A DNA stretch of 64,000 nucleotides from a virus (taxonomy: Duplodnaviria > Caudoviricetes): positions 224,001 through 288,000 of IMG/VR virus record IMGVR_UViG_3300033498_000048, one strand, 5' to 3'. The notes under the pieces are model-generated. The model was given only the letters and a program-made list of their open reading frames with translations, was not told where the DNA came from and did not search any database. Both the position numbers and the translations under genes were made by a program. Numbering within the stretch: position 1 is the stretch's first letter; each line of letters starts with the position of its first letter. Shown one piece after another: positions 3,438 to 58,059 of the stretch.

Positions 3438-3932
3438 TTAAGAATCAACTTCAATGGTATGAGCGAACTGTTTTGTGTTTTTTATTATTGTATTTATTTT
3501 ATGGACAAATTCAGAATCATCATATAATCGCCTAAGCATATTTTCTAACCTTGATTTTATAATTTCAATTCTTATTATATATTTGCCAATATTATCAATT
3601 TTGCCATCCAGGTTCGGTTTAATTTGAATTTCTTTTTCATCTTTAAACTTTTCACCGTTGTATGACTTAAATGTGTATGTCGATAATTCATAGTCGTTGT
3701 TCAATCTAATACCATCCAATACTATTCGGAATAGTATTGGCGTTGCACCCACATAAAAGTTTATCTTAGGGTCTTTTGTTGTTGAAATCATATGATAGTT
3801 CTTCCCTTTAATAAATCCGTTATCAATTATATATTGCATACTATCATAATCAACTAAATGATATAACAGTTTTGGTGGACGTTTATATTTTTGTGTTTCT
3901 TCTATTAAAAAGTTTTCAAATGTGTTATACAT
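3438..3932 (-). CDS. putative ADP-ribosyltransferase-fold protein with capsid-targeting-like N-terminus
   Basis: N-terminus MYNTFENFLIEE; LYH...ISTT...DEKEI resembles the ART H-S-E strand motifs. Confidence 0.5.
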   Translation of the reverse strand: MYNTFENFLIEETQKYKRPPKLLYHLVDYDSMQYIIDNGFIKGKNYHMISTTKDPKINFYVGATPILFRIVLDGIRLNNDYELSTYTFKSYNGEKFKDEKEIQIKPNLDGKIDNIGKYIIRIEIIKSRLENMLRRLYDDSEFVHKINTIIKNTKQFAHTIEVDS

Positions 3933-3935
3933 TAT

Positions 3936-4682
3936 CTATCCCACAAACCAATCTATGGGATATTGATAAGTGTTAATCAATTCATCTTCTAATACTTCAA
4001 GGTCAGATAACGCATCATCATACATTTGTCGTCCATTTAATGTCATACCAGATGGTAATTGGAATCCATCAAACTTAATCATATTTTGACCCCATTGTCG
4101 TTTGAATAATGCTATTACATATTTTTTTAACCACATATCATTCCAAACATTATCATAGTCGTCTGGATCCACAATTACTGTACATTCAATTGCAATATAT
4201 TGACCCAATCCAATTAAACTCCAATCAGCTTCTATAAACAATCTATTCATGTGTCTATTGAATCTAACTGGTTTCTCATAATTAAATAGCCAGTTTATTG
4301 TAGATAGGTATTCCATATTAACCATAAAGCTACCAAGCCCACCTCCATTTGTTGGCGAAGCCATTTGACTAATAACATCACTCATATAAGCTGTATATTG
4401 TAAATTGTTATTACTAAAACCACTACCCCCGTATGGAAATACCCTTAATATAGATAATACGTTATCTGAAATTGGAATATATTTGTTTGCTAAATCATTA
4501 TTGGAAATTTGATGTACAATGTAACTTTTTGCTGAACCATCTGAATGAAATTCCCAATACTTTTGTAAAGCCTCATCAATTCTATCATCAATTTGTTCAT
4601 CAGCAATGTTTATTTGTATAACGGGTGCGCCCAATGAACGCAACGCATAATCTACTAAGTCTTGTTTTGTACTAATTGCCAT
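3936..4682 (-). CDS. gp13: T4-like neck protein
   Basis: L..YALRSLGAPVIQINI..EQI.DRIDEALQ...EFH; WLKKY..ALFKRQWGQN..KF.G.QLP.G.TLNG. Confidence 0.95.
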   Translation of the reverse strand: MAISTKQDLVDYALRSLGAPVIQINIADEQIDDRIDEALQKYWEFHSDGSAKSYIVHQISNNDLANKYIPISDNVLSILRVFPYGGSGFSNNNLQYTAYMSDVISQMASPTNGGGLGSFMVNMEYLSTINWLFNYEKPVRFNRHMNRLFIEADWSLIGLGQYIAIECTVIVDPDDYDNVWNDMWLKKYVIALFKRQWGQNMIKFDGFQLPSGMTLNGRQMYDDALSDLEVLEDELINTYQYPIDWFVG

Positions 4683-4684
4683 AA

Positions 4685-5092
4685 TTATCGTACTCCGAAG
4701 TCGTAAACTTGAATTTTACCTTTTTTGTTATAACCAACTTGATTACCATCAATAAATTTTACCCAACTTGGTAATTTATCTGAATCAACATTAATATCGA
4801 CCTTGACCATCAATAATACTGGAAAGTTTTTAATTAATACGATTTTAGCCGAAGCATAATCAGTCCAATCGGGTTTAAATCTAACCGAACTCTCGTATTG
4901 ATTATCATCAATACCATCATAATTGCGAGGAACTTTAAACACAAAGTTTTTAGACTTAAATGTACACCTATTCCTACCACAATCTGGTTCACCATACTTC
5001 TTAGATAACATTGATATTATTTCTTGAACCATAGGATAATCACTGTTGAAATATTCGTCTGTAATATACTCTGCAAAACTTTTTATGGTCAT
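4685..5092 (-). CDS. minimal protein-kinase-like protein with capsid-targeting-like N-terminus
   Basis: N-terminus MTIKSFAEYITDE; CGRNR (Gly-loop-like), VFKVP (VAIK-like), NQYE, DGNQVGY and YDFG. Confidence 0.55.
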   Translation of the reverse strand: MTIKSFAEYITDEYFNSDYPMVQEIISMLSKKYGEPDCGRNRCTFKSKNFVFKVPRNYDGIDDNQYESSVRFKPDWTDYASAKIVLIKNFPVLLMVKVDINVDSDKLPSWVKFIDGNQVGYNKKGKIQVYDFGVR

Positions 5093-5193
5093 AAATTATT
5101 TACCTTTACCGTAGTTATAAATGTATTCTTTGTACATTTCAAGTAAATCTGAAATGTAATGGTTCGTTGTATCTGATATATAGCATAATCTAT

Positions 5194-5523
5194 TTAATGG
5201 ATGTTAATATTTGAATTTAATGGATGTACATTATATAAAACTTTGGTTTCAATATTGTTTGGTCCAACCATAATAACGGTATATGTATCGTCATTGCAAT
5301 AATATATGAAATCGCCATTATTATTTGGAATTACAGTTGCTTCCATATTATAATTACTATTAACAAATAATACCCTATCACATATTCCAGATGGAGTCAT
5401 TGCATTTCCACTAATTGAATGTGTCGAATATCCAACAATGTTTGGATTTCTGTTGTTTGTAGTATTCGTAGATAGATATTGGTGTAATGCTAAAACTACT
5501 GGATTTATTGTTAATATGTCCAT
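5194..5523 (-). CDS. hypothetical virion-associated protein
   Basis: 109-aa beta-rich ORF within the structural operon. Confidence 0.5.
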   Translation of the reverse strand: MDILTINPVVLALHQYLSTNTTNNRNPNIVGYSTHSISGNAMTPSGICDRVLFVNSNYNMEATVIPNNNGDFIYYCNDDTYTVIMVGPNNIETKVLYNVHPLNSNINIH

Positions 5524-5524
5524 A

Positions 5525-6592
5525 TTAAGCTAACATCCTAGTATTCACTGGAAACCAAATATTGCGAAAATTACAATATGTCGGATTTACTCCAATCGAA
5601 TCTATAGTTGTATTAATAACATTAGGGTTTCCACAAAACTTAATATCAGAAACTTTACCAATTAAATATTTTAATGTTGTTGTTTCTGCTGTTAAGTATG
5701 TATTAAACAACCATTGATTTCCCTCTGAATCCCCACCAGCACTTAGATTATATCCAAAGTAATAACAACCTGAAATACCATCACCACTTGGAAATGCAGC
5801 ATTGGTATTTGCAGATGCTTTTACTATAGTCCAAATGATTGCTGTTGTATTTGTTCCATCTGGCATCCATGTGTTAAAAACTGGATTTACAGTTGAGCTT
5901 ACATTTGTAGAACCATTTAAATAAAAGTTCATATGGTTTGTTGAGTCTAACATTGATACTTGTGCTGCAATCGCGAATGGATAATCCTTTCCTTGATACT
6001 TTCCAACATCTGCTATTGGATATACCATTAATGCAGTGTGCATAATTAATAGTCCATTTAAAGTGATTAACGCATAAAAACTTCCATTATTGGTATTTGC
6101 AAATTGCCATTTGGTATTAGTTATAGCTGTTCGTACAAATATAGTATTGCTAATTAGGGTAATACCATTTGTACTTGTTGGAATCGTTGTAATTGAAGCA
6201 ACTCCAGTAGATGGTTTAACCCTATGGAAATACACGCTCCACTTGCTATAATCGGTTGTTGAACTTCCATGACAGTCTAGTATTAGCCAAACTCTGGACT
6301 GGTCTCCAAGGTAACTTCCGTTCAATCCTGCTACTATACCAACTGGACTTTTTAATAATAACCAAGACCTAGCTAACGAATTTGTATTCCAAGTAATATT
6401 GTTTAAATCTGTACCCCACAAGTCTAAATTTGCTGAATATGTAGTTCCATTTGAACAACCATCAATAGTCCAACCAGCTCCAATTAAAAATGTTTTCAAT
6501 TGGATGAACCACGATTGACATTGTTTTTGTAGAGTTGTTTGGTCTGTTGGTTCGGTATTTAATTGGAATGACCAAGTTTTATCATATGTCAT
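5525..6592 (-). CDS. putative virion structural/tail appendage protein
   Basis: 355 aa, T/N/G-rich, lies between the fibre-like gene and the neck genes. Confidence 0.55.
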   Translation of the reverse strand: MTYDKTWSFQLNTEPTDQTTLQKQCQSWFIQLKTFLIGAGWTIDGCSNGTTYSANLDLWGTDLNNITWNTNSLARSWLLLKSPVGIVAGLNGSYLGDQSRVWLILDCHGSSTTDYSKWSVYFHRVKPSTGVASITTIPTSTNGITLISNTIFVRTAITNTKWQFANTNNGSFYALITLNGLLIMHTALMVYPIADVGKYQGKDYPFAIAAQVSMLDSTNHMNFYLNGSTNVSSTVNPVFNTWMPDGTNTTAIIWTIVKASANTNAAFPSGDGISGCYYFGYNLSAGGDSEGNQWLFNTYLTAETTTLKYLIGKVSDIKFCGNPNVINTTIDSIGVNPTYCNFRNIWFPVNTRMLA

Positions 6593-6595
6593 ATA

Positions 6596-7156
6596 TTACC
6601 ACCCATGAGTAACTTGATTAGCTCGCAATTCATTAATAGCAGCAACTAAGCTAGTTTTGTCTGTAGTTGTTAATGTTGATAATACACCGTCCCTATTTGA
6701 TGATTCATTACTAACATTAGTTATATCTCCTGACAATGTTGCTTGAACTTCATTAATAGCCACAACTAAATTATTTTTATCTAATGTCGTTAGATTTGTT
6801 AATGTTCCAATCTTAGAGTTATAATTTACTATAACAGAATTAATAGCAGCAACTAAGTTATTTTTATCTGTGGATGTTAGGGTTGACAAATCTCCTGATA
6901 TTGTTTCAATATCACTTAGAACTTCATTAATGGCAGCAACTATATTCCCATTTGCTACTGTATTTAAGCTTGGTAACATCCCTATTTTTAACACCAATTC
7001 AATAATTGAATTAACAACACTTGTTTTATCGGATGTTGTTAGTGTTGATATTGTTCCAATATCATTTGTATTGTCATTTGTTTGGACTGAAATCGTATTT
7101 GACTTCACTCTCCACTGTTCAAATGTATCTGATGTGTTAATAATTATTAATGCCAT
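6596..7156 (-). CDS. fibritin/whisker-like fibre protein with internal repeats
   Basis: INTSDTFEQWRVKSN start; repeats of L.TLTT.DK..LV.AINE; occupies the wac-like position before the neck genes. Confidence 0.65.
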   Translation of the reverse strand: MALIIINTSDTFEQWRVKSNTISVQTNDNTNDIGTISTLTTSDKTSVVNSIIELVLKIGMLPSLNTVANGNIVAAINEVLSDIETISGDLSTLTSTDKNNLVAAINSVIVNYNSKIGTLTNLTTLDKNNLVVAINEVQATLSGDITNVSNESSNRDGVLSTLTTTDKTSLVAAINELRANQVTHGW

Positions 7157-7359
7157 TATTTAATCTCATTTAGTTTGGAAAACACTAAAGACATTTGTTT
7201 CTCTAGTGTATTTACTTTGTGTGACATTGTTAGTAGTTGGGATTCTAAATCACGCCGTTGTTTTGCTACATTATATTCATGGTCATTTATATTAATTATA
7301 CAACCAGATTGTTCATCCCTAACAAATCTCGAATCATCTTGAACTTTAACCCATGTCAT
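7156..7359 (-). CDS. small conserved T4-like structural-operon protein
   Basis: 67 aa, RDEQSGCIIN plus a coiled coil; translationally coupled on both sides. Confidence 0.6.
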   Translation of the reverse strand: MTWVKVQDDSRFVRDEQSGCIININDHEYNVAKQRRDLESQLLTMSHKVNTLEKQMSLVFSKLNEIK

Positions 7360-10300
7360 GTTAATGCAATTACCTTTAAGTTTTTGAATTTTGGAGGATT
7401 TGATGTGTTTTTTGTTTTTCCAACAAGTTTAACTTTAACAGCTTTAAATGTTGCTGTTTTATTGTTCCACATAGTTGGTAGCACCTCACCTACAATAAAT
7501 TCTATATGTTGAAAATCATTGCTTGTAATTGATGTAAAGTTTTTCTTAAATTCAATAGGCATTAATATCCAATCTACATCATCAATGATTCTTGAATCTC
7601 CAATATTAAGGGTTTTTATATAAATGTCAAAATTAGAATACAATGGTTTACAAACTTCAACAATAATCTTCAATTCTATTGCTGAATTTTTCAATGTCAT
7701 TACTTTTGAAATATATTTATATGACGATATACCATTTCTATTATTTGTTTCTGGAATAAATCTATTTAATCCATTCGGAATAACATCATAAATATTAGCA
7801 TCAATATCGTTGTCAATTTTATTAGCTATACCAATTACACTTAATGAATTGATGTTAATTACTGGAGAAACATATTGATTATCACTATTAAATGTACCAA
7901 CAACTCCAATACTTTTACCAGTATTACCAAATACCCTAATTTCATTATAATCATTAGCAAACTTAAATGGTGAATTTAAATTAACCAATTCCCCAATCTT
8001 AAATGGAATATCATATTGTTTAATGTAATTTAAATTACTAAACAAATCGAATGATTGATGTCCAATACCAGATAATACCCATGAGTTAGTACAACCGTTT
8101 ATAATTGGGTTAGAACAACTAACCACAAACTTATCGTATTTCAAATTCAAGTTTAAATACACATTCAATTCAACTATTCCAGAAGTTGTTGCAGGGGTAC
8201 TAAGTTGGATTATAAATGAATTTATAGAATCAATTGAAACAATGGCAATATCGTTATTAAAATCCGTTGATGGAATACCATTAATATCAATAATTGATGT
8301 TGAATTACAAGTTCCAGTGATAGTGCTTATCGCTGAATTAAATGTTGTTGTACCACCAACAAACGAATCTGTAACATATCTATCAGTCAATTGTTGTGTG
8401 AAATTATTTACTGTAAATTGTTGTCCTATTGAAAAGTGTCCAGTAATATCACTCAATTGACAATCAATAGTTGATATGATAATTCCAGGTTTAATGTCAC
8501 TGATAGTACCAACACCTGTTGTTGTTGATATTCTTTGTCCTATAGAAAACTTGTCACTAATATTATTTAATGTGAAATTTAACCATATACCACTGGACAA
8601 ATCAAACTTGTAAATATCACCAATAGCAACTCCATGATTGCTTCTGTGTATTCTAACTAAGTTACTTCCAGATTGAGTTTCTATTGCATTCGACATTGAA
8701 TTATAATCCCGAACAACACGATTATTAAATGTCAATTGCATATTTGATGCTGTAAATATAGCTCGATTAATAGCATATTTCAAATCATAGTTTATTATCT
8801 CAGTCCACATATTGTTTTGTGATTTATATAATCCAGTTGATTCAAATTGTTTGTTAATTAATTTGTTAAATTGAATAACATCATATTGACCCAATTCACC
8901 TACCCATATTTTAGTTGAAGGCTTAACACTACTAATAACCATAGCATAATTATATCCAGCCTTTACATATACAGGATATAGCAATTTGAGTTCAGATTTA
9001 ACACTTGCGTTTGAACTTGTAATAATGTCCCTACCTTTGACATTACAACCACCTAACACATCATCTCCAGGAATACCTGTTCCATCAATAACATTTCTTA
9101 ATTCTAAACATACCATATCGTCTGGATGTATTGATTGGAAATATAGGCTTATTCCTGTAATATAACAATCAACATCAATTGAAAATGTTTGAGCTATAGG
9201 GTCTGGTGTGTTAGTATCATCTAATTGAATCGCGTGTTGTGTCGCACTTGTAAATGTATTTTGGTAAGTATTGACACTAGCCCATGTTCCAGCAGTCCAC
9301 AATATTGTTTCCGCACTGGTTTCTAACACGGCATTGTTTGTAACTTTAAATACTTTTGGACCACTCCTAAAACGTTCTTTAGGTAATTTGAACTCAAGTT
9401 TTACGTTACCTAAGTTATCAACAACTATATCATCTCCATAGTTGGTTTTTGTGTTTAATGGTCGACATAAATCAGATACATTGATACCATCAAAAAAGCA
9501 ATATACTTTTGTGTTTGGTTTTAGTCCAGTCGCGAAAACCTGGAATCGTTGTTTTTCAATGAGTGGACATACTTTTAATTGTGATTTAACATTTTCTTGA
9601 TTTTTATATATGTTATTTCCAATAGTTTGTGTATTAAGGTTGTTATTAACATCAATTAACCTAACAGCATTATCTGATTGTAAATTATTAGTATTGGTAG
9701 CCTCATTTAACCATTCCCACACATTAGATTCAATTCCAGCCAATCCAAGCTTGTTTATCGGAATTGAATCTAACCCGACTTTAGCATCAATAACAACTTT
9801 TGGGTCATTTTCTAAATCTGCCCAATTAGTGATATTTGGAACTATAATAGCCTTTCCAGTAATACTTGGAGTTGATTGTGTATTAATTACAATAGCTTCA
9901 CTTGCAAATGGTTGTGTGATAAATGGTTCATCATAATGATTTAACATGATGATATTTCCATATTGTTTATAGTTTGTACTATCACTTGGAATAAAATCAA
10001 AGTTCGCATTAAACATAGTATATTGTGGGACAACCTCATAATGAGTTCTATCAATTACACATTTAAACTCTGTATCATCTATTGCTGAATATCGAAAGCT
10101 ATTGAAACAATCTACCATAAACCCATTTTTATACAATTCAATTCCATTGATGTTTTTTATTGGAGTATCAACCAACCTACGTTCCAATGTGGTAAAATTT
10201 GTAAAGTTTTCTAATTCAGTTATTCTATTATCGAGTTTTCCAATATCACGCATTGTATATCGTTTATTTTCAATGAATGATGTTACTATATCTGTTTCTA

Positions 10301-12800: not shown

Positions 12801-12808
12801 AATAATCC

Positions 12809-14353
12809 TTAAAATAAAATAACTAATTTAATATTCTCTTCCTCATTTATACTACGAGTTATCGCTTGAATATTACTTAAATATAATACATATCCACTAC
12901 CACGTTTAATTTTGTGTAATGGACTAATAACATCACTATAATCTGGATGACTTGGTCCAATATAATAATTTAAATATGCTGGAATACCATTTGAATCTAA
13001 CACATCGGTAATAATAGCAATTTGTCTATAATCACTTCCAACATCTGTTATTAAATGTGTATTGTTTTCCAATTTAACACTAATTAAAATGGCAGTTGCA
13101 TTTAACTCAGTAACCATATTATACCCATGACCGTTATATGGAGACATAATTGCCTTTGCAATACACCCAGATGTTCCAGCAATAATAAACACTTTAGCCC
13201 AAGTGTAATTTGTTCCATTAGAATTAACTGTTATAGCTGTTACAGTATTTGATTCTGATATTACTGGACTTGCTGTTGCTCCAGTTCCATCGCCTACAAT
13301 TAAAACAATCGCATCTGTATAGTTTGACCCAACCATATTTACATCTATGCTAGTAACTGTTCCTGTTGTTATATTTGCAGTTGCAGTTGCTCCAGTTCCC
13401 AATGCAGTAGTGTTTTTTATTATCGCAAATGTATCTGTAGTATATCCATTACCACTTTCTATAGCCAATACTTGTCTAATTTCATTTGTGTTTGTTTTTA
13501 TTACATTAACAACTACATTTGACCCAACTCCATCTATTGCAACTTCGGTATCTGCGAATGTTCCAATTTGTGTCAATATGCTGAATGTACTTATTCCATT
13601 AGTTTGTGCTGACTGTTGTATTGTCCATTGCTCACTACTATCATCTTGAATGAGGTATTTTACTGGAACATACCCTGTAGTTAAAAATGTTGCAGCATCT
13701 TGTGAGCTAATATTACCAAGATACTTCCAGCAATACCCGTCTGCTAACACTACAGGATTTATTCCTGTAGTTGTTGGTTTTGAAATACTAGGCGAATCGG
13801 TGTTATTATCAAGACATTTGTATATCTTTAACTCATCAGTAACAATGTAATACGGAGTTAAATACGGTGATTCAAAAGTGTCAACGTCTGGATTAAACTG
13901 ACTATACACAATACCTGAAGTCCAATCGTGTCTAATTGCCATCATTCTAACATCGTTACTTGTTATCTTTTTTAATGTAATGATATTGTTCATGGTTTTC
14001 AAATCACCTGAATTTGACATATCGGGTAAGGTTGGGGATGATTCATTAAACCAAGGCACTGGATTACCAATTGATAGGAACATATTTCCTTTGAATGTGT
14101 TATCTTTGATAACTTGTTCAATAAACATCCAATTCAAACTACCATCAGACATTGTTCCGCTAATATGTGTTGGAGTTATATTACCACTAATTCCAGCTGA
14201 CAATGCACAATATTTATTTGTTCCACTGATACAAACATTGCCTATTATATAATTTGTGTTTGATGTCCAAACATCTGGAGTTTTAGATTGTATTGTATTA
14301 ATAAAACTATTACAAGAAAAACCTCTAATATTTTGACTGAACTTTGCTGACAT
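12809..14353 (-). CDS. gp8: T4-like baseplate wedge subunit
   Basis: YYIVTDELKIYKCLDNN, S..KPT, DGYCWKYL, GHG, DYRQIAI motifs. Confidence 0.85.
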   Translation of the reverse strand: MSAKFSQNIRGFSCNSFINTIQSKTPDVWTSNTNYIIGNVCISGTNKYCALSAGISGNITPTHISGTMSDGSLNWMFIEQVIKDNTFKGNMFLSIGNPVPWFNESSPTLPDMSNSGDLKTMNNIITLKKITSNDVRMMAIRHDWTSGIVYSQFNPDVDTFESPYLTPYYIVTDELKIYKCLDNNTDSPSISKPTTTGINPVVLADGYCWKYLGNISSQDAATFLTTGYVPVKYLIQDDSSEQWTIQQSAQTNGISTFSILTQIGTFADTEVAIDGVGSNVVVNVIKTNTNEIRQVLAIESGNGYTTDTFAIIKNTTALGTGATATANITTGTVTSIDVNMVGSNYTDAIVLIVGDGTGATASPVISESNTVTAITVNSNGTNYTWAKVFIIAGTSGCIAKAIMSPYNGHGYNMVTELNATAILISVKLENNTHLITDVGSDYRQIAIITDVLDSNGIPAYLNYYIGPSHPDYSDVISPLHKIKRGSGYVLYLSNIQAITRSINEEENIKLVILF

Positions 14354-14363
14354 TTAAACCTCT

Positions 14364-17779: not shown

Positions 17780-18174
17780 TATCTAATCCTCTGAATCACA
17801 TAATTAAAAGTTTCTTGCCTATTCAAATTTAATATCTCATAAAATATTGTTATGTCATATGCGTTTCCATCTGGTAATAAAACAACCGTAACATCCATTA
17901 CCTTAATTCTAGGTTCAACTGCACCAATTAACCATTCAATTCTTGATTTTAATGTCGATGCAATTAATACAGATGGATTCTCAAATAACAATTCTTTGAT
18001 GTAATTCTTATATTTGCTATTGAATGGAACATCCCATATTTCCCATAAAAATATCGTGCGTAAGCTCCGTCTAATTGCTTCTTCATTTATTTTCGTTGTT
18101 ATGTCTCCAGTTAATGGGTGTATCGTCAATGATAAATCTACATCACGATATATTATTAAATCTGTGTTTTTCAT
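17779..18174 (-). CDS. gp25: baseplate wedge/sheath initiator
   Basis: YRDVDLS...HPLTGD, AIRRSL, EPRI; directly before gp6. Confidence 0.88.
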   Translation of the reverse strand: MKNTDLIIYRDVDLSLTIHPLTGDITTKINEEAIRRSLRTIFLWEIWDVPFNSKYKNYIKELLFENPSVLIASTLKSRIEWLIGAVEPRIKVMDVTVVLLPDGNAYDITIFYEILNLNRQETFNYVIQRIR

Positions 18175-24402: not shown

Positions 24403-24410
24403 TATAAATA
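24403..24410 (+). promoter_or_regulatory. T4-type late promoter
   Basis: TATAAATA ahead of the + strand cluster 24447-26247. Confidence 0.7.
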
Positions 24411-24446: not shown

Positions 24447-24620
24447 ATGGAAGGACAATGGCTTGGAGGTAAGGGTTCAACAACTAGACCTATGCAAGTA
24501 AACCGACAACAGTTTGAAGATAACTGGAACAAGATTTTCAACAAGAAACTGGATAATGCGAATAAATTAATTCCAGTAAATGAAACCATAGTGGAGATTG
24601 TAACAAATGACACAGTATAA
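24447..24620 (+). CDS. small conserved phage protein (W.GGKGS..RP...F..NW.KIF type), not in the ORF track
   Basis: 57 aa MEGQWLGGKGSTTRPMQVNRQQFEDNWNKIFNKK...; AAGGGG RBS; follows the late promoter. Confidence 0.7.
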   Translation: MEGQWLGGKGSTTRPMQVNRQQFEDNWNKIFNKKLDNANKLIPVNETIVEIVTNDTV

Positions 24621-24858
24621 AACATTTAAATCCTTTTGTGAGTCTGTAACAGCGTTGCCTATCTATTTTCTATGTGAAAAGTGTAAAGAATCAGGTATTC
24701 AGGAGTCTGATGAATTTGATATGGAGACTAAAACCTCTAGGCAAGAATATATTACAAAGGGACAAGATAAAATATTTTTAAAGAAAGTTTGTTATGAATG
24801 CAAATCTGAAAGTGGTGTAGACGAGAATTATTTAAAAGGGATACAATATAGTGGTTAA
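24607..24858 (+). CDS. zinc-ribbon protein with capsid-targeting-like N-terminus
   Basis: MTQYKTFKSFCES; CEKC...CYEC. Confidence 0.6.
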   Translation: MTQYKTFKSFCESVTALPIYFLCEKCKESGIQESDEFDMETKTSRQEYITKGQDKIFLKKVCYECKSESGVDENYLKGIQYSG

Positions 24859-25453
24859 TGTTAAAAACATTAGGGTAAAATCATTTAATGAATATTTAAT
24901 GGAAAACAGTCCAATAATTAGAACTGAGTTAGACAAAGAAATACATTCTAACACAGCAACAAGCCAATTAAATGATATTCCAATTCCATCAATGAAAGAT
25001 GCAAAAAGTGGAGATTATAAAAAAAGCAGAATTAAAATAAATGGACTAATCATTGATATTGAAAATCCGTATGGTTCAGTTAGAAAAGGCATTAGCTCAA
25101 ATGGCGAATCGTGGGAAATTACGTTATCAGATAATTATGGTGAAATTAAGGGGTATGATGCTGCTGATGGAGATTATTTAGATATTTTCATTCGTCCACA
25201 TATGACACAAAAACAAGCAGATAATTTAAATGTCATTTATGTGATAGACCAATTGGATCCAACTACACATGGATTTGATGAACATAAAGTCGTATTTGGG
25301 TATGAAACAATCGAGGAATCTAAACGTGCATATCTAGCCAATTATAAATCAAATTGGACTGGATTAGGATATATCACTCCATTAACTATGACGATGTTTA
25401 AATATTGGATTAAAAATGAAGACTTAACACAACCATTAGTTTGGGGTAAATAA
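24851..25453 (+). CDS. inorganic pyrophosphatase-like (polyvalent-protein InPase family) with capsid-targeting-like N-terminus
   Basis: KSFNEYLME; IDIENPYGSVRKG, YGEIKG..AADGDYLDIFI, VIDQ, FDEHKVVFGY, AYLANY, W.GLG.IT. Confidence 0.8.
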   Translation: MVNVKNIRVKSFNEYLMENSPIIRTELDKEIHSNTATSQLNDIPIPSMKDAKSGDYKKSRIKINGLIIDIENPYGSVRKGISSNGESWEITLSDNYGEIKGYDAADGDYLDIFIRPHMTQKQADNLNVIYVIDQLDPTTHGFDEHKVVFGYETIEESKRAYLANYKSNWTGLGYITPLTMTMFKYWIKNEDLTQPLVWGK

Positions 25454-25834
25454 ATGTTTAAATCATTCAATGACTTCATACGATTAGAAGATACGAGCTT
25501 TCATTCAATAATGGCAAGGAACATAAAACCCACCAAACAAAAAACAGTTGATTTTGATGATATTAGCACTGGTTCAACCGTTAGATTAGTTGATATTGGA
25601 AATTACTTTTTATTAACTGGATTAGAAACACCTCCAGAAAATAGGGGTAAAGGTGGTGCTAAAAAAGTTATGCAACAGGCAATTCAATATGCGATTGATA
25701 ACGAAAAGAACATAGAATTATCGGTTATTCCTGACGATGATACAGACACTGAAACCTTAATAAAATTGTATTCTAGTTTTGGATTTAGAAAAACAGGACA
25801 ACCACATAACCATATGCGTTATATTACAATATGA
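25454..25834 (+). CDS. GNAT acetyltransferase with capsid-targeting-like N-terminus
   Basis: MFKSFNDFIRLE; LETPPENRGKGGAKKVM (acetyl-CoA motif A), LIKLYSSFGF. Confidence 0.85.
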   Translation: MFKSFNDFIRLEDTSFHSIMARNIKPTKQKTVDFDDISTGSTVRLVDIGNYFLLTGLETPPENRGKGGAKKVMQQAIQYAIDNEKNIELSVIPDDDTDTETLIKLYSSFGFRKTGQPHNHMRYITI

Positions 25835-26247
25835 AATCATTTAAAGAATATACAAACAATCCGATATTATATCACGGAACAACATCAAACTTCGATTTTG
25901 ATAAAGGTTTAATGGCAGGTGGAAATAAACAAACAACGTCCAACTTTAATGCCAGTAATGGTGAAATTTGGCTAACTTCAAATAGGGAAGTTGCGTTTGA
26001 GTATGCTATGATTGCATGGAAAACACTACAAAACTTTTCATTAACGCCGATTTTGATACAAGTTGATATTGATGTTAGCTTATCAGCAGACCAACCTATA
26101 GAACATGACCAAGTAGCGTTTTGTTTTGAATTAGATGTTATTCCAAAAAGTAAACTAAAGATGGTAAAGTTGACTCAAGCAGAATTAGCTAATTTCAAAA
26201 AACGATATGACCGAGAACTTAAAAATGGAAAATCAAAATTCAATTGA
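25831..26247 (+). CDS. ADP-ribosyltransferase-like protein (ART-PolyVal type) with capsid-targeting-like N-terminus
   Basis: MKSFKEY; LYHGT...IWLTSNREVAFEYA. Confidence 0.7.
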   Translation: MKSFKEYTNNPILYHGTTSNFDFDKGLMAGGNKQTTSNFNASNGEIWLTSNREVAFEYAMIAWKTLQNFSLTPILIQVDIDVSLSADQPIEHDQVAFCFELDVIPKSKLKMVKLTQAELANFKKRYDRELKNGKSKFN

Positions 26248-28573: not shown

Positions 28574-28602
28574 ATAATCTCCTTATAATTGTTTTAAAAT
28601 AA

Positions 28603-28660
28603 TAGCACTTGGAACAGTCTTATAATTAACTAACTGTTCCAAGTGCTAACCTGTTGATAT
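28603..28660. repeat. solitary copy of the 68-bp palindromic element
   Basis: TAGCACTT-GGAACAGTCTTATAATTAACTAACTGTTCC-AAGTGCTAACCTGTTGAT; 16-bp perfect stem; abuts the RNA ligase stop codon. Confidence 0.9.
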
Positions 28661-30828: not shown

Positions 30829-30889
30829 GATTAGCTGAAATTGGTAAACAACATAAATACCATTTTAGTTAAATTAGGGGATACAGATT

Positions 30890-31469
30890 ATGTTACTAAG
30901 TTTTAATGAATATTTGTTATCTGAGGCATACATTAACCTGATAGGTGATGACGCTAAAAAACAAAACTACGTTGATGCTGTTTGGAATATGTTACAAATA
31001 TCTTATGAGAGGATTGGTGGAATACATGATTATGGGTTTAAAGATAAACAGAATATGATTACCAATATAAATTTTTGGAAATAGCTACTAAAGATGGTAA
31101 ACCTGTAGCAGTTGCAATGTATAAAGATTCTGGAGGCAGAAAAAATTAGTTGCGTATGGAACTGATAAGTCCACAGTAGGAAAAGCAAAGATAGTTGATA
31201 TTATTAAGGCAGATATGACCAGAAGTTATATGGAACTATCTGGTGCAACTGTGACAATATTAATGAATAACATTGAGTGGAATCAATTGAAAGATTATAC
31301 ATTCACTCCAGAGCAAGCTGAAAAATTGCTAGGAAAGGATATTACACCAATAAGTCAACTACCATCAATTCCATAAGATGCGAAATTAACGTTGGCATTG
31401 TTTGAATATGGGTACATAAGAAAGATTGGTAGTGATTTACATTTTAAAGTTATGTTTGGTAAAATCTAG
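30890..31469 (+). pseudogene. frameshifted gene with capsid-targeting-like N-terminus
   Basis: MLLSFNEYLLSEAY...NFWK, shift at 31079-81, IATKDGKPVAVAMYKDSGGRK, shift at ~31140-45, LVAYGTD...TAA at 31374...YIRKIGSDLHFKVMFG stop at 31469. Confidence 0.75.
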
Positions 31470-32395: not shown

Positions 32396-32770
32396 TCATA
32401 ACCTTTTACCTTTTAATGCTATATACCTTTCCATGGACTGTTCCATATTCCTAATATGATTGAAGTAATTTAATCTATCCAACCAAGATAGGCTATGTGA
32501 ACTACATAGGAATAGCTCATGGGTGTGTGGGTTATTTCCGCGATATAACACACCAGAAGCTTCTCTAATATAAACTAATTCCATATTAACCGAATTAATA
32601 TCAAACCGAATACAGGGTGAGAACTCACCATTACAAACTCGAATCAAATACAATATGCTTAATATTATATTAGTGTTTTCATCTGAACCAAATAATATTA
32701 TGTTTCTATCCATATATTCAGATATGACTATTTGCATTACAACACACCATCCAAGAAAACAAATTTCCAA
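32396..32770 (-). CDS. hypothetical protein
   Basis: 124-aa ORF. Confidence 0.5.
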   Translation of the reverse strand: MEICFLGWCVVMQIVISEYMDRNIILFGSDENTNIILSILYLIRVCNGEFSPCIRFDINSVNMELVYIREASGVLYRGNNPHTHELFLCSSHSLSWLDRLNYFNHIRNMEQSMERYIALKGKRL

Positions 32771-33195
32771 TTATATTTCTCTTTCTGATGCTTAATCATA
32801 CTATCAACAATTGTATGGCTAAACTTTACACTTCCAGTGTCAATGCCAGTTGTTAAAATTACTAGGATTACATTGTTTGGACGTGCTTGTTCTTGCATAG
32901 ATGCGAACTTTAATCCAAGCATACTAATTGTTTTACCTATAGCATCATATAAAGCTGAAACACCACTTGGGTTATACATCATATCATTCAATATCAGTAT
33001 TGGTGAATCCAATCTAAATACGACCTTTGAATTGAATGTCGCTAGAATATTTGGATGGTTGTTTTTAATGTATGCGTTATATGTGTCAATTACATTTTGT
33101 TTTATTCCAATCATATTATCAGACTCGTCTAATATGAATGTAGTGTATGTAGAATCTTTCATGTTTGTGTTCCTTAATAGTGAAGTCGAAGTCAA
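32737..33195 (-). CDS. degenerate vWA-domain protein
   Basis: TTFILDESDNM (MIDAS-like DxSxS altered), ILTTGIDTGS (TDG.EN.S altered), WKFVFL. Confidence 0.6.
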   Translation of the reverse strand: MTSTSLLRNTNMKDSTYTTFILDESDNMIGIKQNVIDTYNAYIKNNHPNILATFNSKVVFRLDSPILILNDMMYNPSGVSALYDAIGKTISMLGLKFASMQEQARPNNVILVILTTGIDTGSVKFSHTIVDSMIKHQKEKYNWKFVFLDGVL

Positions 33196-33203
33196 TATAA
33201 ATA
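33196..33203 (+). promoter_or_regulatory. T4-type late promoter
   Basis: TATAAATA 24 nt before the 33227 start. Confidence 0.7.
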
Positions 33204-33226: not shown

Positions 33227-33610
33227 ATGATGTTATTTGAACAATTTTTATATGAGAATGTTGGAAGTGTCAATCTGGCAACTGACCTTTTTTATATGGC
33301 TAGAAACTCTGCTACCATTGCACACAAGCAACACTTAAATTCCAAATCTAGGTCAGAACACGAAGCACTCCAAGAATATTATGATGGAATAATCACATTA
33401 ACTGATAGGCTTATGGAATGTTTCATTCAAAGATTTGGTAGAATGTGCGACTCTCCAGAAACGATTGACTTTTTGTCTGTTGAGGGGTTTGCTAAATGGT
33501 TGGAAACATATCGCTACGATATTACGGATGTTCCACATATCCAAACTATTATAGATGAAATGCTCATTTTATGTGATTCGGTATTATATAAGCTTAGATA
33601 CCTAAATTGA
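33227..33610 (+). CDS. ferritin/Dps-like four-helix protein (DUF5856-like) with capsid-targeting-like N-terminus
   Basis: MMLFEQFLYE; AHKQH...SEHEALQEYYD..TD.L.E, YKLRYL. Confidence 0.75.
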   Translation: MMLFEQFLYENVGSVNLATDLFYMARNSATIAHKQHLNSKSRSEHEALQEYYDGIITLTDRLMECFIQRFGRMCDSPETIDFLSVEGFAKWLETYRYDITDVPHIQTIIDEMLILCDSVLYKLRYLN

Positions 33611-54263: not shown

Positions 54264-54292
54264 ACTATTTATTATAAACAAGTCTAACAAAA

Positions 54293-54604
54293 TTAGGTGT
54301 TATAGTTAGATTCAATTTCAGCTAAGGCTTTTTTCATTTGCCGTTTAATTGCAGGAGTGCAATTTGGTTGATATTTGATAACAGTTTGTTGTAATACTTT
54401 TAATTGTTCTATTACTTTGTCATCGGTAATATCAGGATTCACTAAAAAGTATTCAAATTGTCCTGAAGCATCATCAAATAAGAATGAATCCAACTCACCT
54501 GTTGATAAAGTTTCAGATTTTAGTATTGAATTTATCTTTTCAACTGACATTCCAGGTTTTATAATGGTTTCAGATTCACTTAAGAATTGTCCAAATGTTT
54601 TCAT
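54293..54604 (-). CDS. putative internal head protein
   Basis: MKTFGQFLSE closely resembles the T4 IP capsid-targeting sequence MKTYQEFIAE. Confidence 0.65.
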   Translation of the reverse strand: MKTFGQFLSESETIIKPGMSVEKINSILKSETLSTGELDSFLFDDASGQFEYFLVNPDITDDKVIEQLKVLQQTVIKYQPNCTPAIKRQMKKALAEIESNYNT

Positions 54605-54613
54605 GTTTATTCC

Positions 54614-55315
54614 TTATTTGTTATAAAATGGGTTATCGTCAATTTCACTTAAAGGGTTTTCTTTAAGCATACTTTTAACCATGTCTAATATCTTTGTATC
54701 CAAATGGTTTTTTAACCAAGGGTTAGATGTCATATTTATAGACGAGTCAACATTCATATCCATCAACTTTTGTATTTTTTTATTGGCTTCTTGTCCCAAT
54801 TCGTTAATGATAACATCGTCTAACTTTTTAACACCTTGATAAATTGCATTAGAAATATCATTAAACGAATCAGCTCGTGATAACCAAGACATTCTTCTTG
54901 AAAATTCACGTTCAGCTTTCCCAGTTTCAGTGTTAATAGACCATTGTGGAACTGAACCATTATTTATTCTACGCAATATTTCAACTCGGTCTTTTTGAAC
55001 TTTAACAGCGTTTTCCCATATTGTTGGATAATCACGTCTTAATTCAGATATATCATCTTGTTGGACTAATGCAATAATAGCTTGCATTTTATCGAAAATT
55101 ATTTTATCAATTTCAACCTTTTCAGGTGATTCTTGATATATGTCTTGTTTTATTTTATTGATTTTTTTATGTAAACTGGGATTACCTCCAGCTAAGATGT
55201 TTCCATCATGGTCAACATATATTGACCCACCTCTGCCCATTCGTTTCCAAGTTCCACCAGATAATGCCTTTTGGTCAGCCTCTGACAAAACCATAAAATC
55301 TTTAATGCTTATCAT
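54614..55315 (-). CDS. putative internal head protein
   Basis: MISIKDFMVLSEAD; W..MGRGGSIYVD.DGNILAG motif. Confidence 0.55.
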   Translation of the reverse strand: MISIKDFMVLSEADQKALSGGTWKRMGRGGSIYVDHDGNILAGGNPSLHKKINKIKQDIYQESPEKVEIDKIIFDKMQAIIALVQQDDISELRRDYPTIWENAVKVQKDRVEILRRINNGSVPQWSINTETGKAEREFSRRMSWLSRADSFNDISNAIYQGVKKLDDVIINELGQEANKKIQKLMDMNVDSSINMTSNPWLKNHLDTKILDMVKSMLKENPLSEIDDNPFYNK

Positions 55316-55450
55316 ATTAATTTATCCTATATTATGGTTGGTTTTGTTGTATTTATTATATTTGAATACTAGGCTATAGAGTCATTTATTACTAATGGTC
55401 CAGTTTCTTTTCGTATCATCATGGACATTAGATTCAACTTAGATACGACT

Positions 55451-56325: not shown

Positions 56326-56331
56326 CATTAT

Positions 56332-56820
56332 ATGGCTAAAAGAAAAACAGCACAAGATAAAGAAGCTGAATACCAAAACAACCCTTGGATGTTTAATAAT
56401 GAACCGTTCAATGATTGCAAACAATATGCTGGATTTGTTTATGAAATAATAGACTTAGAAACCAGTAAACGCTATATTGGAAAAAAGTTTTTTTGGAGTA
56501 TGAAACGGGTTCCAGGTAGAAAAAACCGAATCACTGTAGAATCTACATGGAGAGAATATTATAGTTCCAGTGTTGAGATTAAGGCACTGGTTAAAGAATT
56601 TGGAAAAGCTAGATTTAAGCGAACCATATTATCAATACACGAATTAGAAAGGGATGTTAATTATGAAGAAACAAGGCAATTATATACTAAAAAGGTATTA
56701 TCAGAAGTGAATGGTGATGGTGAATTGGTTTATTATAATGGAAACATTGAAGGTAAACGATTTTCTAATCTTTGTATTGGAATAGAAAATCGTAGTTTAT
56801 TTGCAATGGAAGCAATTTAA
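56332..56820 (+). CDS. GIY-YIG family endonuclease
   Basis: GFVYEI......RYIGKK, ES.W..YYSS, YYNGNI. Confidence 0.85.
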   Translation: MAKRKTAQDKEAEYQNNPWMFNNEPFNDCKQYAGFVYEIIDLETSKRYIGKKFFWSMKRVPGRKNRITVESTWREYYSSSVEIKALVKEFGKARFKRTILSIHELERDVNYEETRQLYTKKVLSEVNGDGELVYYNGNIEGKRFSNLCIGIENRSLFAMEAI

Positions 56821-56834
56821 TAAAGTTTTTATTA

Positions 56835-57071
56835 TTAGTCCACAATAAAAGATATGTTATCATAGCCACTAAAATGGTGTAACTTTGGAAACACCGAAAT
56901 GGTAAACCAACAACCAAACTCAAAGTAGTCGTTCATCATTTTGTCTTTAGAACACCCAAATTTATTCTTTACATTAACACCAGTTGATAAATCCAAACTC
57001 GTAGAGGTAAATTCGCACCCATTACTAGAAGTGTGTTGGATAACAATTATTGATTTTATAGATGTGGACAT
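56835..57071 (-). CDS. hypothetical early protein
   Basis: 78 aa with AAGGA RBS, behind the promoter at 57104-57132. Confidence 0.55.
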   Translation of the reverse strand: MSTSIKSIIVIQHTSSNGCEFTSTSLDLSTGVNVKNKFGCSKDKMMNDYFEFGCWFTISVFPKLHHFSGYDNISFIVD

Positions 57072-57103
57072 AATGATTCCTTTAAGTTCTCAATGATGGT
57101 TAT

Positions 57104-57132
57104 ACTATAATGTGTTGGAGTTATAATGTCAA
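57104..57132 (-). promoter_or_regulatory. sigma70 promoter overlapping the end of repeat array 3
   Basis: TTGACA-N17-TATAGT on the minus strand. Confidence 0.75.
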
Positions 57133-57373
57133 TCAATATGTTAGCATTTGCAACGGTTAAGTAACTAACACATTCATTGATTGTGTTGTCATAAATACTT
57201 GCTGTAATAGAATCAATGAGTTAGCACTTGGAGCTATTACATAATTAATAACAATGTCCAAGTGCTAACTCATTGATAGTTATACTATTCACATCAATTA
57301 TGAAAAATCAATGGGTTAGCACTTGGAACTATCATATAATTACTAACACGCTGCAAGTGCTAACTTATTGATA
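57131..57373. repeat. palindromic-element array 3 (2 intact plus 1 degenerate unit)
   Basis: 30-nt cores at 57230-57259 and 57325-57354. Confidence 0.95.
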
Positions 57374-57375
57374 GG

Positions 57376-58059
57376 TCAACCAACACCAATAAGGTTTTGA
57401 ACTGGGTCAATGATTACTAATTCCTTTGTGCTTGGACGTATCATAAAATTATCACTATGTAAATCACTCATAAAGTTTTTAAACAAAGGCTCGATTAATC
57501 GCAAAGCTTTTATTAAATTATCATCTGTAATTCTGGATTTAAGTTTCAAACGTCTAGTTGGGTTTGCAAATTGTTGTCTAATATCAAGATACAAGTCATT
57601 TAAGTTTCTGTAGCTATTAAATGGGTCAAAAAAACCCAATGATTTAAACATATTCCATACAAATTTAGCATCTTCATGGAATAACGGCATTAAACGTTCT
57701 ACTACCATGACCAGCATATATTTTTCTTGTGTTGGTTGTATCAATGTTCTATATTTTAAAAAGTCAATATCATCTTCTGTTAATTCTGAATTGTCATACA
57801 TCTTATAGGTATAAACTTTTGGAAAATATGGATTATTTTCGTGATTAACACACAATCTTAAAAATTGAACAGAAGCATCATTCTCACCTGTTACATTAAC
57901 AACCTTTATAATCTTGTTAGCATCTTTAGTGTGAGCATATACCAAGGCTTGAACTCCAGACCCTAATAGCTTTTTATCTTTCATTATACCATTGAATTTT
58001 GTATCAGATTTAGGGAGTTGTAATTTAACTTCCCTAATATAGTTTTGATAGGACAACAT
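57376..58059 (-). CDS. Ser/Thr protein kinase-like protein with capsid-targeting-like N-terminus
   Basis: MLSYQNYIRE; LGSGVQALVY (Gly loop), IIKV, FPKVY, VERL, DLHSDNFM (catalytic loop), VIIDP. Confidence 0.85.
   Translation of the reverse strand: MLSYQNYIREVKLQLPKSDTKFNGIMKDKKLLGSGVQALVYAHTKDANKIIKVVNVTGENDASVQFLRLCVNHENNPYFPKVYTYKMYDNSELTEDDIDFLKYRTLIQPTQEKYMLVMVVERLMPLFHEDAKFVWNMFKSLGFFDPFNSYRNLNDLYLDIRQQFANPTRRLKLKSRITDDNLIKALRLIEPLFKNFMSDLHSDNFMIRPSTKELVIIDPVQNLIGVG

What the first reader, a model, noticed from the sequence alone, without database searches (positions are those of the whole stretch)
3438..58059. At least 11 dispersed ORFs share a T4 internal-protein-like capsid-targeting N-terminus: a predicted injected enzyme arsenal
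Seen N-termini: MYNTFENFLIEE (3932), MTIKSFAEYITDE (5092), MTQYKTFKSFCES (24607), ...KSFNEYLME (24851), MFKSFNDFIRLE (25454), MKSFKEY (25831), MLLSFNEYLLSE (30890), MMLFEQFLYE (33227), MKTFGQFLSE (54604), MISIKDFMVLSE (55315) and MLSYQNYIRE (58059). Established: T4 IPII/IPIII begin MKTYQEFIAE, which directs packaging into the prohead and is cleaved after Glu by gp21; IPI* is injected and blocks GmrSD. Several of these genes follow TATAAATA late promoters (24403, 33196) or lie in late operons. Inference: the phage packages and injects two ART-like proteins, two kinase-like proteins, a GNAT, a pyrophosphatase-like protein and a ferritin-like protein for immediate host takeover or anti-defence.
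Basis: partly seen in the sequence, partly recalled or inferred. Interest (0 to 1): 0.82.

Follow-up and report, generated by a model that had tools for sequence, protein, structure and literature searches.

The report
T4-type capsid-loading tags on many enzymes
An uncultured 306-kb T4-like phage starts about twenty unrelated late genes, several of them enzymes, with the short peptide that phage T4 uses to load proteins into its head, so it probably packs and delivers a large protein cargo with its DNA; no virion has been examined.

Summary
All 11 N-termini are present as written, and I add one in-window member (32737-33162, minus strand). Genome-wide, about 20-26 genes carry the tag.

- **Enrichment.** A pattern taken from T4's MKTYQEFIAE fits 16 of 461 N-termini. 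Internal positions predict 1.6, and shuffled N-termini also give 1.6 (maximum 7 in 2000).
- **Cross-check on T4.** A matrix built only from this phage's tags ranks T4 gp61.1, IPII, IPIII and IPI first among 268 T4 N-termini.
- **Key positions.** The conserved residues are those published for T4: aromatics 4 and 7 for targeting, I/L 8 and E 10 for processing.
- **Machinery.** The genome has a gp21-type prohead protease, a gp22-like scaffold with tag-like repeats, and a gp23-like capsid protein.
- **Portability.** Beyond the tag the proteins are unrelated, apart from three paralogue pairs. Codons vary, late-promoter motifs are enriched, and relatives' orthologues keep the tag.
- **Cargo.** InPase, a GNAT, two ART-like proteins (one folded with high confidence), two T7 gp0.7-like kinases, DUF5856 and a 2H (Acb1-like) phosphodiesterase.

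Packaging, cleavage and injection are inferred, not shown. This is a new variant of a known kind. The scan found the same pattern earlier in at least six other uncultured phage genomes.

The parts
3438..3932 (-). 164-aa tagged protein (MYNTFENFLIE|E) with an ADP-ribosyltransferase-superfamily fold, lying between the gp13-like and gp14-like neck genes
   Evidence: N-terminus. AF2 pLDDT 92.3, tag residues 5-15 helical. Foldseek top hits are Tpt1/KptA and DarT. 79 of 103 homologues carry a leader ending [LIF]xE. Neighbours are PHROG Ad2 and Hc2.
4685..5092 (-). 135-aa tagged protein of unknown fold (MTIKSFAEYITDE) in the late neck/baseplate operon
   Evidence: No Pfam or PHROG family.
24403..24410 (+). 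TATAAATA late-promoter-type motif 196 nt upstream of the four-gene tagged operon
24607..24858 (+). 83-aa Cys-rich tagged protein (MTQYKTFKSFCE); a weaker tag; first gene of the operon
   Evidence: Matrix score 11.7. Weak BSD2_CRD hit.
24851..25453 (+). Polyvalent-protein-type inorganic pyrophosphatase (InPase). GTG start, with the tag KSFNEYLME at residues 10-18.
   Evidence: PF18823 5.2e-42. Orthologues P0005 and P0006 start MKQTFKEYFDE and MNQTFEEYLAE, and L019 has MKIKTFKSFVSE.
25454..25834 (+). 126-aa GNAT acetyltransferase-like tagged protein (MFKSFNDFIRLE)
   Evidence: Acetyltransf_1 at 20.9 bits against a 20.7 cut-off. phrog_1249 1.3e-6.
25831..26247 (+). 138-aa tagged protein (MKSFKEYTNN, like T4 IPI's MKTFKEFTST) with ART-fold leads (Arr / Tpt1 / ART-PolyVal)
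   Evidence: ART-PolyVal at 17.9 bits, below the cut-off. Atlas features 0.94 to Arr-ms; TM 0.53-0.60 to Arr, DUF3990 and Tpt1.
30890..31084 (+). 64-aa tagged protein of unknown function (MLLSFNEYLLSE), with CATAAATA at 30852-30859
32737..33162 (-). New candidate member: 141 aa starting MKDSTYTTFILDE at an internal ATG with an AAGGA ribosome-binding site
33196..33203 (+). TATAAATA late-promoter-type motif 23 nt upstream of 33227
33227..33610 (+). 127-aa DUF5856 protein with tag MMLFEQFLYE. It hits phrog_858, whose description is the same as the product name of T4 rI.-1 in RefSeq.
   Evidence: PF19174 5.6e-12. phrog_858. T4 rI.-1 annotation.
54293..54604 (-). 103-aa tagged protein of unknown function (MKTFGQFLSE), in exactly the T4 register
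54614..55315 (-). 233-aa protein with a weak tag (MISIKDFMVLSE); AATAAATA at 55350-55357
   Evidence: No family or fold lead.
57376..58059 (-). 227-aa protein-kinase-like tagged protein (MLSYQNYIRE), a paralogue of genome 192615-193301 (MLTFNTFLKE)
   Evidence: phrog_15752 3.3e-12. Paralogue pair at 4.7e-41.

Best explanation
The shared N-terminus is most likely a T4-type capsid targeting sequence (CTS). In this reading it is a portable, roughly 10-residue peptide, M-x-[KLST]-[FY]-x-x-[FY]-[IL]-x-E. It would dock late-made proteins onto the scaffolding core of the assembling prohead. The gp21-type prohead protease would then cut it off after the Glu. The mature proteins would stay inside the DNA-filled head and leave it with the DNA at infection.

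In this 306-kb T4-like phage the tag sits on about 20-26 otherwise unrelated proteins. Several are enzymes of the kinds that other phages carry in packaged 'polyvalent' proteins: InPase, GNAT, ART and 2H phosphodiesterase. There are also two T7 gp0.7-like kinases.

**Shown here:**
- the motif, its enrichment and its equivalence to the T4 CTS;
- the presence of protease, scaffold and capsid homologues;
- protein-level (not DNA-level) conservation of the tag;
- association with late-promoter motifs;
- conservation of the tag in relatives.

**Inferred:** docking, cleavage, packaging, injection and what the cargo does in the host.
For: 1. **Same positions as T4.** The residues conserved here are those mapped genetically in T4 IPIII: 4 and 7 for targeting, 8 and 10 for processing (PMC9026906; tags).
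2. **Out-of-sample check.** A matrix built only from this phage's tags ranks T4 gp61.1, IPII, IPIII and IPI as the top 4 of 268 T4 N-termini (14.0-19.6; the next scores 5.7).
3. **Enrichment.** 16 observed against 1.6 expected, by internal rate and by shuffling.
4. **Head machinery.**
   - Peptidase_S77 hit at 4.9e-39, 41% identical to gp21, with the GELxHP and GVSSRGLGSL motifs kept.
   - A gp22-like scaffold and a gp23-like capsid protein.
   - The capsid protein's FLNE|V aligns with T4's gp23 cleavage region FLTEAE|I.
   - The scaffold carries 4-5 repeats of [SA]YGxY[VL] that resemble the tag core.
5. **Portable tag.** From residue 21 on, only 3 paralogue pairs are detectable among 26 candidates.
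6. **Protein-level selection.** Conserved residues use varied codons, and mean nucleotide identity across tags is 40%.
7. **Late expression signals.**
   - TATAAATA lies within 60 nt upstream of 6 of 20 tag genes against 17 of 441 others (P = 1.9e-4).
   - ATAAATA lies within 110 nt of 9 of 20 against 40 of 441 (P = 5.8e-5).
   - The rest sit in operons behind such genes or in the neck operon.
8. **Relatives.**
   - InPase and 2H orthologues keep the tag, while more distant 2H homologues lack it.
   - 79 of 103 representatives of the ART-fold family have a 5-18-residue leader ending [LIF]xE, mostly followed by A, S or G.
   - A 167-kb T4-like contig has five consecutive tagged neck-operon genes.
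9. **Cargo repertoire.** InPase, 2H, ART and GNAT domains were independently predicted to be virion-packaged in other phages (PMC5512222).
Against: - There is no virion proteomics, N-terminal sequencing or expression data for this or any close relative. Everything beyond sequence is analogy with T4.
- The InPase tag is 9 residues from the called GTG start. It is unknown whether an internal CTS works.
- Several members lack Glu at position 10 (MMKTFNQFILTQ, MLLQFKDYVKK, MKSFKEYTNN) and would need a more distal cleavage site.
- Mature cargo is mostly acidic or neutral (pI 4.1-9.2), unlike the basic T4 internal proteins.
- Leave-one-out matrix scores are modest for 8 of 18 seeds.
- One relative with a 57%-identical protease shows no tag in 19 kb around its head genes.
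Confidence: 0.7

Rival explanations
1. The tag does send the proteins to the prohead core, but most act as assembly or core components (like T4 gp67, gp68 and gp22). They would be degraded or expelled during maturation, not kept and injected as effectors.
For: The 269-aa tagged gene sits between portal and protease, where T4 has gp67/gp68. The scaffold itself carries tag-like repeats. Many tagged proteins are small and of unknown function.
Against: Many cargos are enzymes with intact catalytic motifs: two HxT motifs in the 2H protein, InPase at 5e-42, and the invariant residues of the ART-fold family. These have no obvious role in assembly. In T4, CTS-tagged proteins and even foreign fusions stay in the head and are delivered (PMC9026906).
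Confidence: 0.12
2. The peptide is mainly a protease-removable pro-sequence that keeps toxic enzymes (ART, kinase, phosphodiesterase) inactive in the producing cell. Packaging would be absent or secondary.
For: The [IL]-x-E end of the tag matches the gp21-type cleavage pattern. In the ART-fold family the domain starts exactly 6 residues after the Glu in 52 of 79 leaders, so the leader could occlude the domain. In the model it is a helix packed next to the domain.
Against: The aromatic positions 4 and 7, which are the targeting (not the processing) determinants in T4, are the best-conserved part of the tag. gp21-type proteases are active only inside proheads (established T4 knowledge), so cleavage itself implies entry. 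Non-enzymatic small proteins also carry the tag.
Confidence: 0.08
3. The similarity is not a protein signal. It would reflect AT-rich codon bias at gene starts, a translation-initiation element or a dispersed DNA repeat, or simply paralogy.
For: The genome is 31% G+C, and K, F, N, Y and I codons are AT-rich. TTT and AAA dominate some tag positions.
Against: - Shuffling each N-terminus keeps its composition yet gives 1.6 matches against 16 observed.
- Leu, Ser, Phe, Tyr and Glu codons vary, and F and Y interchange.
- Pairwise nucleotide identity over the 30-nt tags averages 40% and never exceeds 70%.
- Mature regions are unrelated.
- The same peptide logic picks out T4's known CTS proteins.
Confidence: 0.03

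Closest known systems
Capsid targeting sequence (CTS) of phage T4 internal proteins IPI, IPII and IPIII (Mullaney and Black 1996; reviewed in PMC9026906 and PMC3012670)
   Same: Both are roughly 10-residue N-terminal peptides with aromatics at positions 4 and 7, I/L at 8 and Glu at 10, carried on otherwise unrelated late proteins. The genome has gp21-type protease and gp22-type scaffold homologues. This phage's tag matrix recovers IPI-III out of sample.
   Different: T4 has three small basic internal proteins, plus gp61.1 with the motif. Here there are about 20-26 carriers, many of them enzymes, mostly acidic or neutral, and scattered through late operons. Position 2-3 is often L-S or L-T in place of K-T. 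Packaging here is untested.
T4 Alt, the head-packaged, gp21-processed ADP-ribosyltransferase injected with the DNA
   Same: Both are ART-type enzymes made late, encoded next to tail or neck genes, and (for Alt) packaged and injected (PMC5512222). Here two ART-like proteins carry the tag, and one lies in the neck operon.
   Different: Alt is 682 aa, belongs to the R-S-E type, and does not start with the CTS. The proteins here are 138-164 aa and resemble Tpt1, DarT and Arr.
Polyvalent proteins of phages and conjugative elements (Iyer et al. 2017, PMC5512222), including P1 DarB/DdrB
   Same: The effector domain repertoire overlaps: InPase (PF18823), ART-PolyVal, GNAT and 2H, all predicted to be virion-packaged and injected. 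The window's InPase-GNAT-ART operon mirrors the domain neighbourhoods they describe.
   Different: Those are single giant polypeptides, often cut up by an internal peptidase. Here each domain is a separate small gene with its own address tag.
Processed inner-body / ejection proteins of phiKZ, 201phi2-1 and SPN3US
   Same: Dozens of head-internal proteins are cleaved after Glu by a gp21-related protease and are ejected into the host (PMC9026906).
   Different: Those phages use S/A-x-E sites and long propeptides, with no shared 10-residue N-terminal tag. Their head genes are only distantly T4-like, whereas this phage has a clear gp20-21-22-23 module.
Acb1 (T4 gene 57B) anti-CBASS 2H phosphodiesterase
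   Same: The tagged protein at genome 1068-1688 passes the Pfam Acb1 cut-off (29 bits against 27). It has both HxT motifs and a 2H fold that includes Acb1 among its matches.
   Different: Acb1 is not the best structural match; CPDase, Usb1 and LigT score as well or better. T4 Acb1 has no full CTS and is not known to be packaged. The substrate here is unknown.

Membership tests
T4-type CTS-bearing head-internal proteins | N-terminal peptide of about 10 residues with the T4 determinants: aromatic at 4 and 7 (targeting), I/L at 8 and Glu at 10 (processing) | tested here: met
   Tags listed. T4 determinants from PMC9026906. This phage's matrix ranks T4 IPII, IPIII and IPI in the top 4 of 268. Two of the 11 are weak, and some genome members lack E10.
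T4-type CTS-bearing head-internal proteins | More frequent at N-termini than chance | tested here: met
   16 observed against 1.6 expected by internal rate. Shuffle mean 1.56, maximum 7 in 2000.
T4-type CTS-bearing head-internal proteins | Genome encodes a gp21-type (S77) prohead protease and a gp22-type scaffolding core | tested here: met
   PF03420 at 4.9e-39. BLASTP to gp21 1.3e-28, gp22 2.4e-7 and gp23 5e-78. Catalytic-region motifs conserved.
T4-type CTS-bearing head-internal proteins | The tag is portable: the carriers are otherwise unrelated | tested here: met
   All-vs-all BLASTP from residue 21 on finds 3 paralogue pairs only. 2H homologues exist with and without the tag.
T4-type CTS-bearing head-internal proteins | Late expression, together with head assembly | tested here: inconclusive
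   Late-promoter-type motifs are enriched (P = 1.9e-4 and 5.8e-5), and two genes lie in the neck operon. No transcript data exist.
T4-type CTS-bearing head-internal proteins | Physically present in the virion, N-terminus removed after Glu, delivered into the host | not testable with these tools
   Needs virion mass spectrometry or N-terminomics and infection assays. The phage is uncultured.
Polyvalent proteins (Iyer et al. 2017) | Two to fifteen effector domains in one polypeptide | tested here: not met
   InPase, GNAT and the ART-like protein are separate ORFs of 126-200 aa. Only the domain repertoire is shared.
ADP-ribosyltransferase superfamily (window 3438-3932) | ART fold | tested here: met
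   AF2 pLDDT 92.3. Foldseek top hits are Tpt1/KptA (E 2e-4, probability 1.0) and DarT, with Scabin lower. No Pfam hit.
ADP-ribosyltransferase superfamily (window 3438-3932) | Catalytic residue set of a defined ART clade (H-Y-E or R-S-E) | tested here: inconclusive
   Y24, H25, S50 and E101 are invariant; T52, R53 and E99 are nearly so. This set does not map cleanly to either clade without a structural superposition.
Acb1 anti-CBASS 2H phosphodiesterase (genome 1068-1688) | Pfam PF23474 above its cut-off, two HxT/S motifs and a 2H fold | tested here: met
   29 bits against a 27 cut-off. H83-I-T85 and H161-x-T163 are invariant. All Foldseek hits at E 0.001 or better but one (a mitoribosome chain) are named 2H-type phosphoesterases; Acb1 7T26 ranks 26. 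2_5_RNA_ligase2 also passes, so the subfamily is not resolved.
Acb1 anti-CBASS 2H phosphodiesterase (genome 1068-1688) | Cleaves cyclic oligonucleotide immune signals | not testable with these tools
   Needs an enzyme assay.

The most novel reading that the evidence does not exclude
T4-like phages outside the enterobacterial model group may have turned the CTS into a general address system. About 5% of this phage's genes would be pre-made, head-packaged effectors delivered at time zero. In effect this would be a polyvalent protein broken into separately tagged modules. The set would include a 2H phosphodiesterase that could destroy cyclic-nucleotide immune signals before any phage gene is expressed, plus kinases and ADP-ribosyltransferases for instant host takeover. 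If so, the 'injectome' of uncultured T4-like phages could be read straight from sequence.
Probability: 0.35. Interest if true: 0.78.

Novelty: new variant of a known kind. Interest (0 to 1): 0.62.

Why it matters
If the tag works as in T4, the proteins a phage delivers with its DNA can be listed from sequence alone, even for uncultured phages. That would give a direct route to candidate first-minute anti-defence and takeover factors. It would also link two ideas so far treated apart: T4's small internal proteins and the giant polyvalent proteins of other phages. Finally, it offers natural tag variants for protein packaging in phage-based delivery tools. A 2H (Acb1-like) enzyme carried in the capsid would be a new timing strategy against cyclic-nucleotide immunity.

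Tried and rejected
- **Near-identity DNA search** of the baseplate region against cultured phages found no match. The distant search matched only the protease, in pelagiphages and cyanophages.
- **The search for related loci with the protease** returned one relative (L018). It had no tag in 19 kb, so it was uninformative.
- **Kinase homologue search** gave a single homologue with a non-aromatic N-terminus, MRVIDLLEKK.
- **PDB sequence searches** for DUF5856, the kinase and the 2H protein found nothing significant.
- **Pfam at E up to 1** for nine unknown cargos gave no credible family.
- **BLASTP between the two ART-like proteins** showed no similarity.
- **Atlas search for 54614-55315** gave no lead.
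- **Complex prediction of the scaffold with the 103-aa cargo** returned no verdict. I do not use it either way.
- **In-sample matrix scores** were rejected as a statistic after leave-one-out showed inflation.
- **Rejected readings:** a DNA repeat or initiation element, paralogy and composition bias.

Full report
**What the DNA is.** The window is bases 224001-288000 of a 305,782-bp virus record with direct terminal repeats, 31% G+C. It is a T4-like myovirus.
- Outside the window lies a head module in T4 order: portal; a 269-aa gene; a Peptidase_S77 prohead protease (E 4.9e-39; 41% identical to T4 gp21, with the GELxHP and GVSSRGLGSL motifs kept); a gp22-like scaffold; and a gp23-like capsid protein (33% identity, 5e-78).
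- Window bases 1905-18174 (minus strand) hold the late baseplate and neck operon: wedge subunits, then gp13-, gp14- and gp15-like genes.
- The nearest cultured relatives are pelagimyophages and cyanomyophages, detectable at DNA level only in the protease.

**Checking the observation.** All 11 N-termini are present exactly as written.
- I took the pattern [FY]..[FY][ILMVT].{1,3}E from T4's MKTYQEFIAE. It fits 16 of 461 ORF N-termini.
- The rate at internal positions predicts 1.6 (Poisson 1.6e-11). Shuffling residues 2-20 of every N-terminus gives a mean of 1.56 and a maximum of 7 in 2000 shuffles.
- Clear members outside the window start at genome 1068, 1698, 54315, 185601, 193301, 194268, 194827, 201068 and 218717. 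Further candidates have internal-Met starts. One is in the window at 32737-33162 (minus strand, MKDSTYTTFILDE).
- My position matrix separates members sharply in sample, but leave-one-out scores are much lower: 10 of 18 reach 10 or more. I therefore rest the statistics on the pattern test and on the cross-validation below.

**Is it the T4 motif?** I fetched the T4 genome and scored all 268 T4 ORF N-termini with the matrix built only from this phage's tags.
- The top four are gp61.1 (MKTFKEFIKE), IPII, IPIII (both MKTYQEFIAE) and IPI (MKTFKEFTST), at 14.0-19.6. The next scores 5.7.
- Published genetics on IPIII place targeting at residues 4 and 7 and processing at residues 8 and 10 (PMC9026906). 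Those are the conserved positions here: [FY]4, [FY]7, [IL]8, E10.
- The capsid protein's predicted maturation site FLNE|V aligns with T4 gp23's FLTEAE|I.
- The scaffold holds 4-5 repeats of [SA]YGxY[VL] that look like the tag core. Earlier notes of this scan made the same point for other genomes; I tested it here only by inspection and matrix score.

**Is it a portable protein signal?**
- From residue 21 on, 26 candidates show only three paralogue pairs: the two kinases, 193792/194297, and 119952/184897.
- Conserved residues use varied codons, F and Y interchange, and mean nucleotide identity over the tag is 40%. This rules out a DNA repeat.
- The InPase orthologues start MKQTFKEYFDE and MNQTFEEYLAE. 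A syntenic 8-kb contig has MKIKTFKSFVSE, followed by another tagged gene.
- The closest 2H homologue starts MLSFKQFLME, whereas 37%-identical homologues lack the N-terminal extension altogether.
- The family of window gene 3438-3932 has 103 cluster representatives. In 79 of them there is a leader of 5-18 residues ending [LIF]-x-E. The leader is followed by A, S or G in 48 of the 79, and the conserved 'xYH' begins exactly six residues later in 52.
- One such homologue lies in a 167-kb T4-like contig between the neck genes and gp15. It is the last of five consecutive tagged genes.

**Timing.**
- TATAAATA occurs only 45 times in the genome. It lies within 60 nt upstream of 6 of 20 tag genes, against 17 of 441 others (Fisher 1.9e-4).
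- ATAAATA within 110 nt gives 9 of 20 against 40 of 441 (5.8e-5).
- The remaining tag genes follow such genes in operons or sit in the neck operon.
- This is promoter-motif evidence, not expression data.

**Cargo.**
- InPase of the polyvalent-protein type: PF18823, 5e-42.
- GNAT: just above the Pfam cut-off.
- 25831-26247: ART-PolyVal below the cut-off, with Atlas leads to Arr, Tpt1 and DUF3990.
- 3438-3932: modelled at pLDDT 92. Its best PDB matches are Tpt1/KptA and DarT.
- Two T7 gp0.7-type kinase-like paralogues: phrog_15752.
- DUF5856: same PHROG description as T4 rI.-1.
- A 530-aa P-loop-like protein.
- A 2H phosphodiesterase (genome 1068-1688). It passes the Acb1 and 2_5_RNA_ligase2 cut-offs, keeps both HxT motifs, and gives PDB matches that are essentially all 2H-type phosphoesterases, Acb1 among them.
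- Iyer et al. (PMC5512222) had independently predicted that InPase, 2H, ART and GNAT domains are packaged and injected as parts of giant polyvalent proteins. Here they are separate genes, each with its own tag.

**Interpretation and limits.** The best explanation is a T4-type capsid-loading and processing tag, expanded to about 5% of the genes.
- Docking, cleavage, retention and injection are all inferred from T4.
- Weak points: the InPase tag is offset from its start; some members lack Glu10; the mature cargo is mostly acidic or neutral, unlike the basic T4 internal proteins; and one relative's head region has no tags.
- A complex prediction gave no verdict.

**Novelty.** The open literature I could search describes the CTS for T-even phages and notes that CTS-like basic proteins vary among them. 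I found no description of a large, enzyme-rich tagged set in other T4-like lineages. This scan has reported the same pattern in at least six other uncultured phage genomes. I class it as a new variant of a known kind.

Noticed in passing
L014 18966-19130 (T4 gene 61.1): T4 gp61.1 (54 aa, MKTFKEFIKE) outscores IPI-III when T4 N-termini are ranked with this phage's tag matrix. It is not an annotated internal protein.
   Followed up: partly
L015 23952-24410 (T4 57B/Acb1) and L015 8819-9205 (T4 rI.-1): T4 Acb1 starts MMEFKDFS and rI.-1 starts MKFSDFS. Both show the aromatic i/i+3 spacing of CTS residues 4 and 7 but have no I/L-x-E. The corresponding families in this phage carry the complete tag.
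   Followed up: no
genome 1068-1688 (L002), residues 7-37, against the capsid protein at genome 197304-198485, residues 39-69: The N-terminal extension of the 2H protein aligns without gaps to the capsid protein's predicted cleavage junction and N-arm (FLNE|VSNVSN..NPILISLVRR). The score is 46 against a shuffle mean of 17.6 (sd 3.5), the best of 430 N-termini. It may be a capsid-protein N-terminus mimic.
   Followed up: partly
L021 6881-10510: A 167-kb, 28% G+C T4-like ENA contig has five consecutive neck-operon genes that start MKTFKCFLNE, MKRFKEFLIE, MKRFKEYLME, MKRFKEYLSLNE and MKTFKQFILE.
   Followed up: partly
window 24851-24858: The InPase ORF starts at GTG, 8 nt inside the end of the preceding tagged ORF. 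Its tag begins 9 residues in. An ATT codon six codons downstream of the GTG would give a tag in the usual register. The true start is unresolved.
   Followed up: partly
genome 58101-62093 (1330-aa ORF): This large protein has two internal tag-like segments: VKSYKEYITT near residue 850 and TTFANFINE near residue 1225. Their meaning is unknown.
   Followed up: no
window 20729-22279 (-): A 516-aa ORF begins ...SALPYANGDIHLGHLL, which looks like a class I aminoacyl-tRNA synthetase (methionyl type) HIGH motif. I did not test it with any tool.
   Followed up: no
window 33594-33980 (-) and 34034-34351 (-): Adjacent ORFs share the N-terminal stretch ITPDGTRLIS.HRH, so they look like a tandem duplication.
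   Followed up: no
window 26820-29794 (-) and L019 3288-6212: A three-gene block (399-aa BCS1_N/AAA ATPase, 184 aa, 377 aa) next to the InPase operon is conserved in gene order and size in an 8-kb ENA contig.
   Followed up: no
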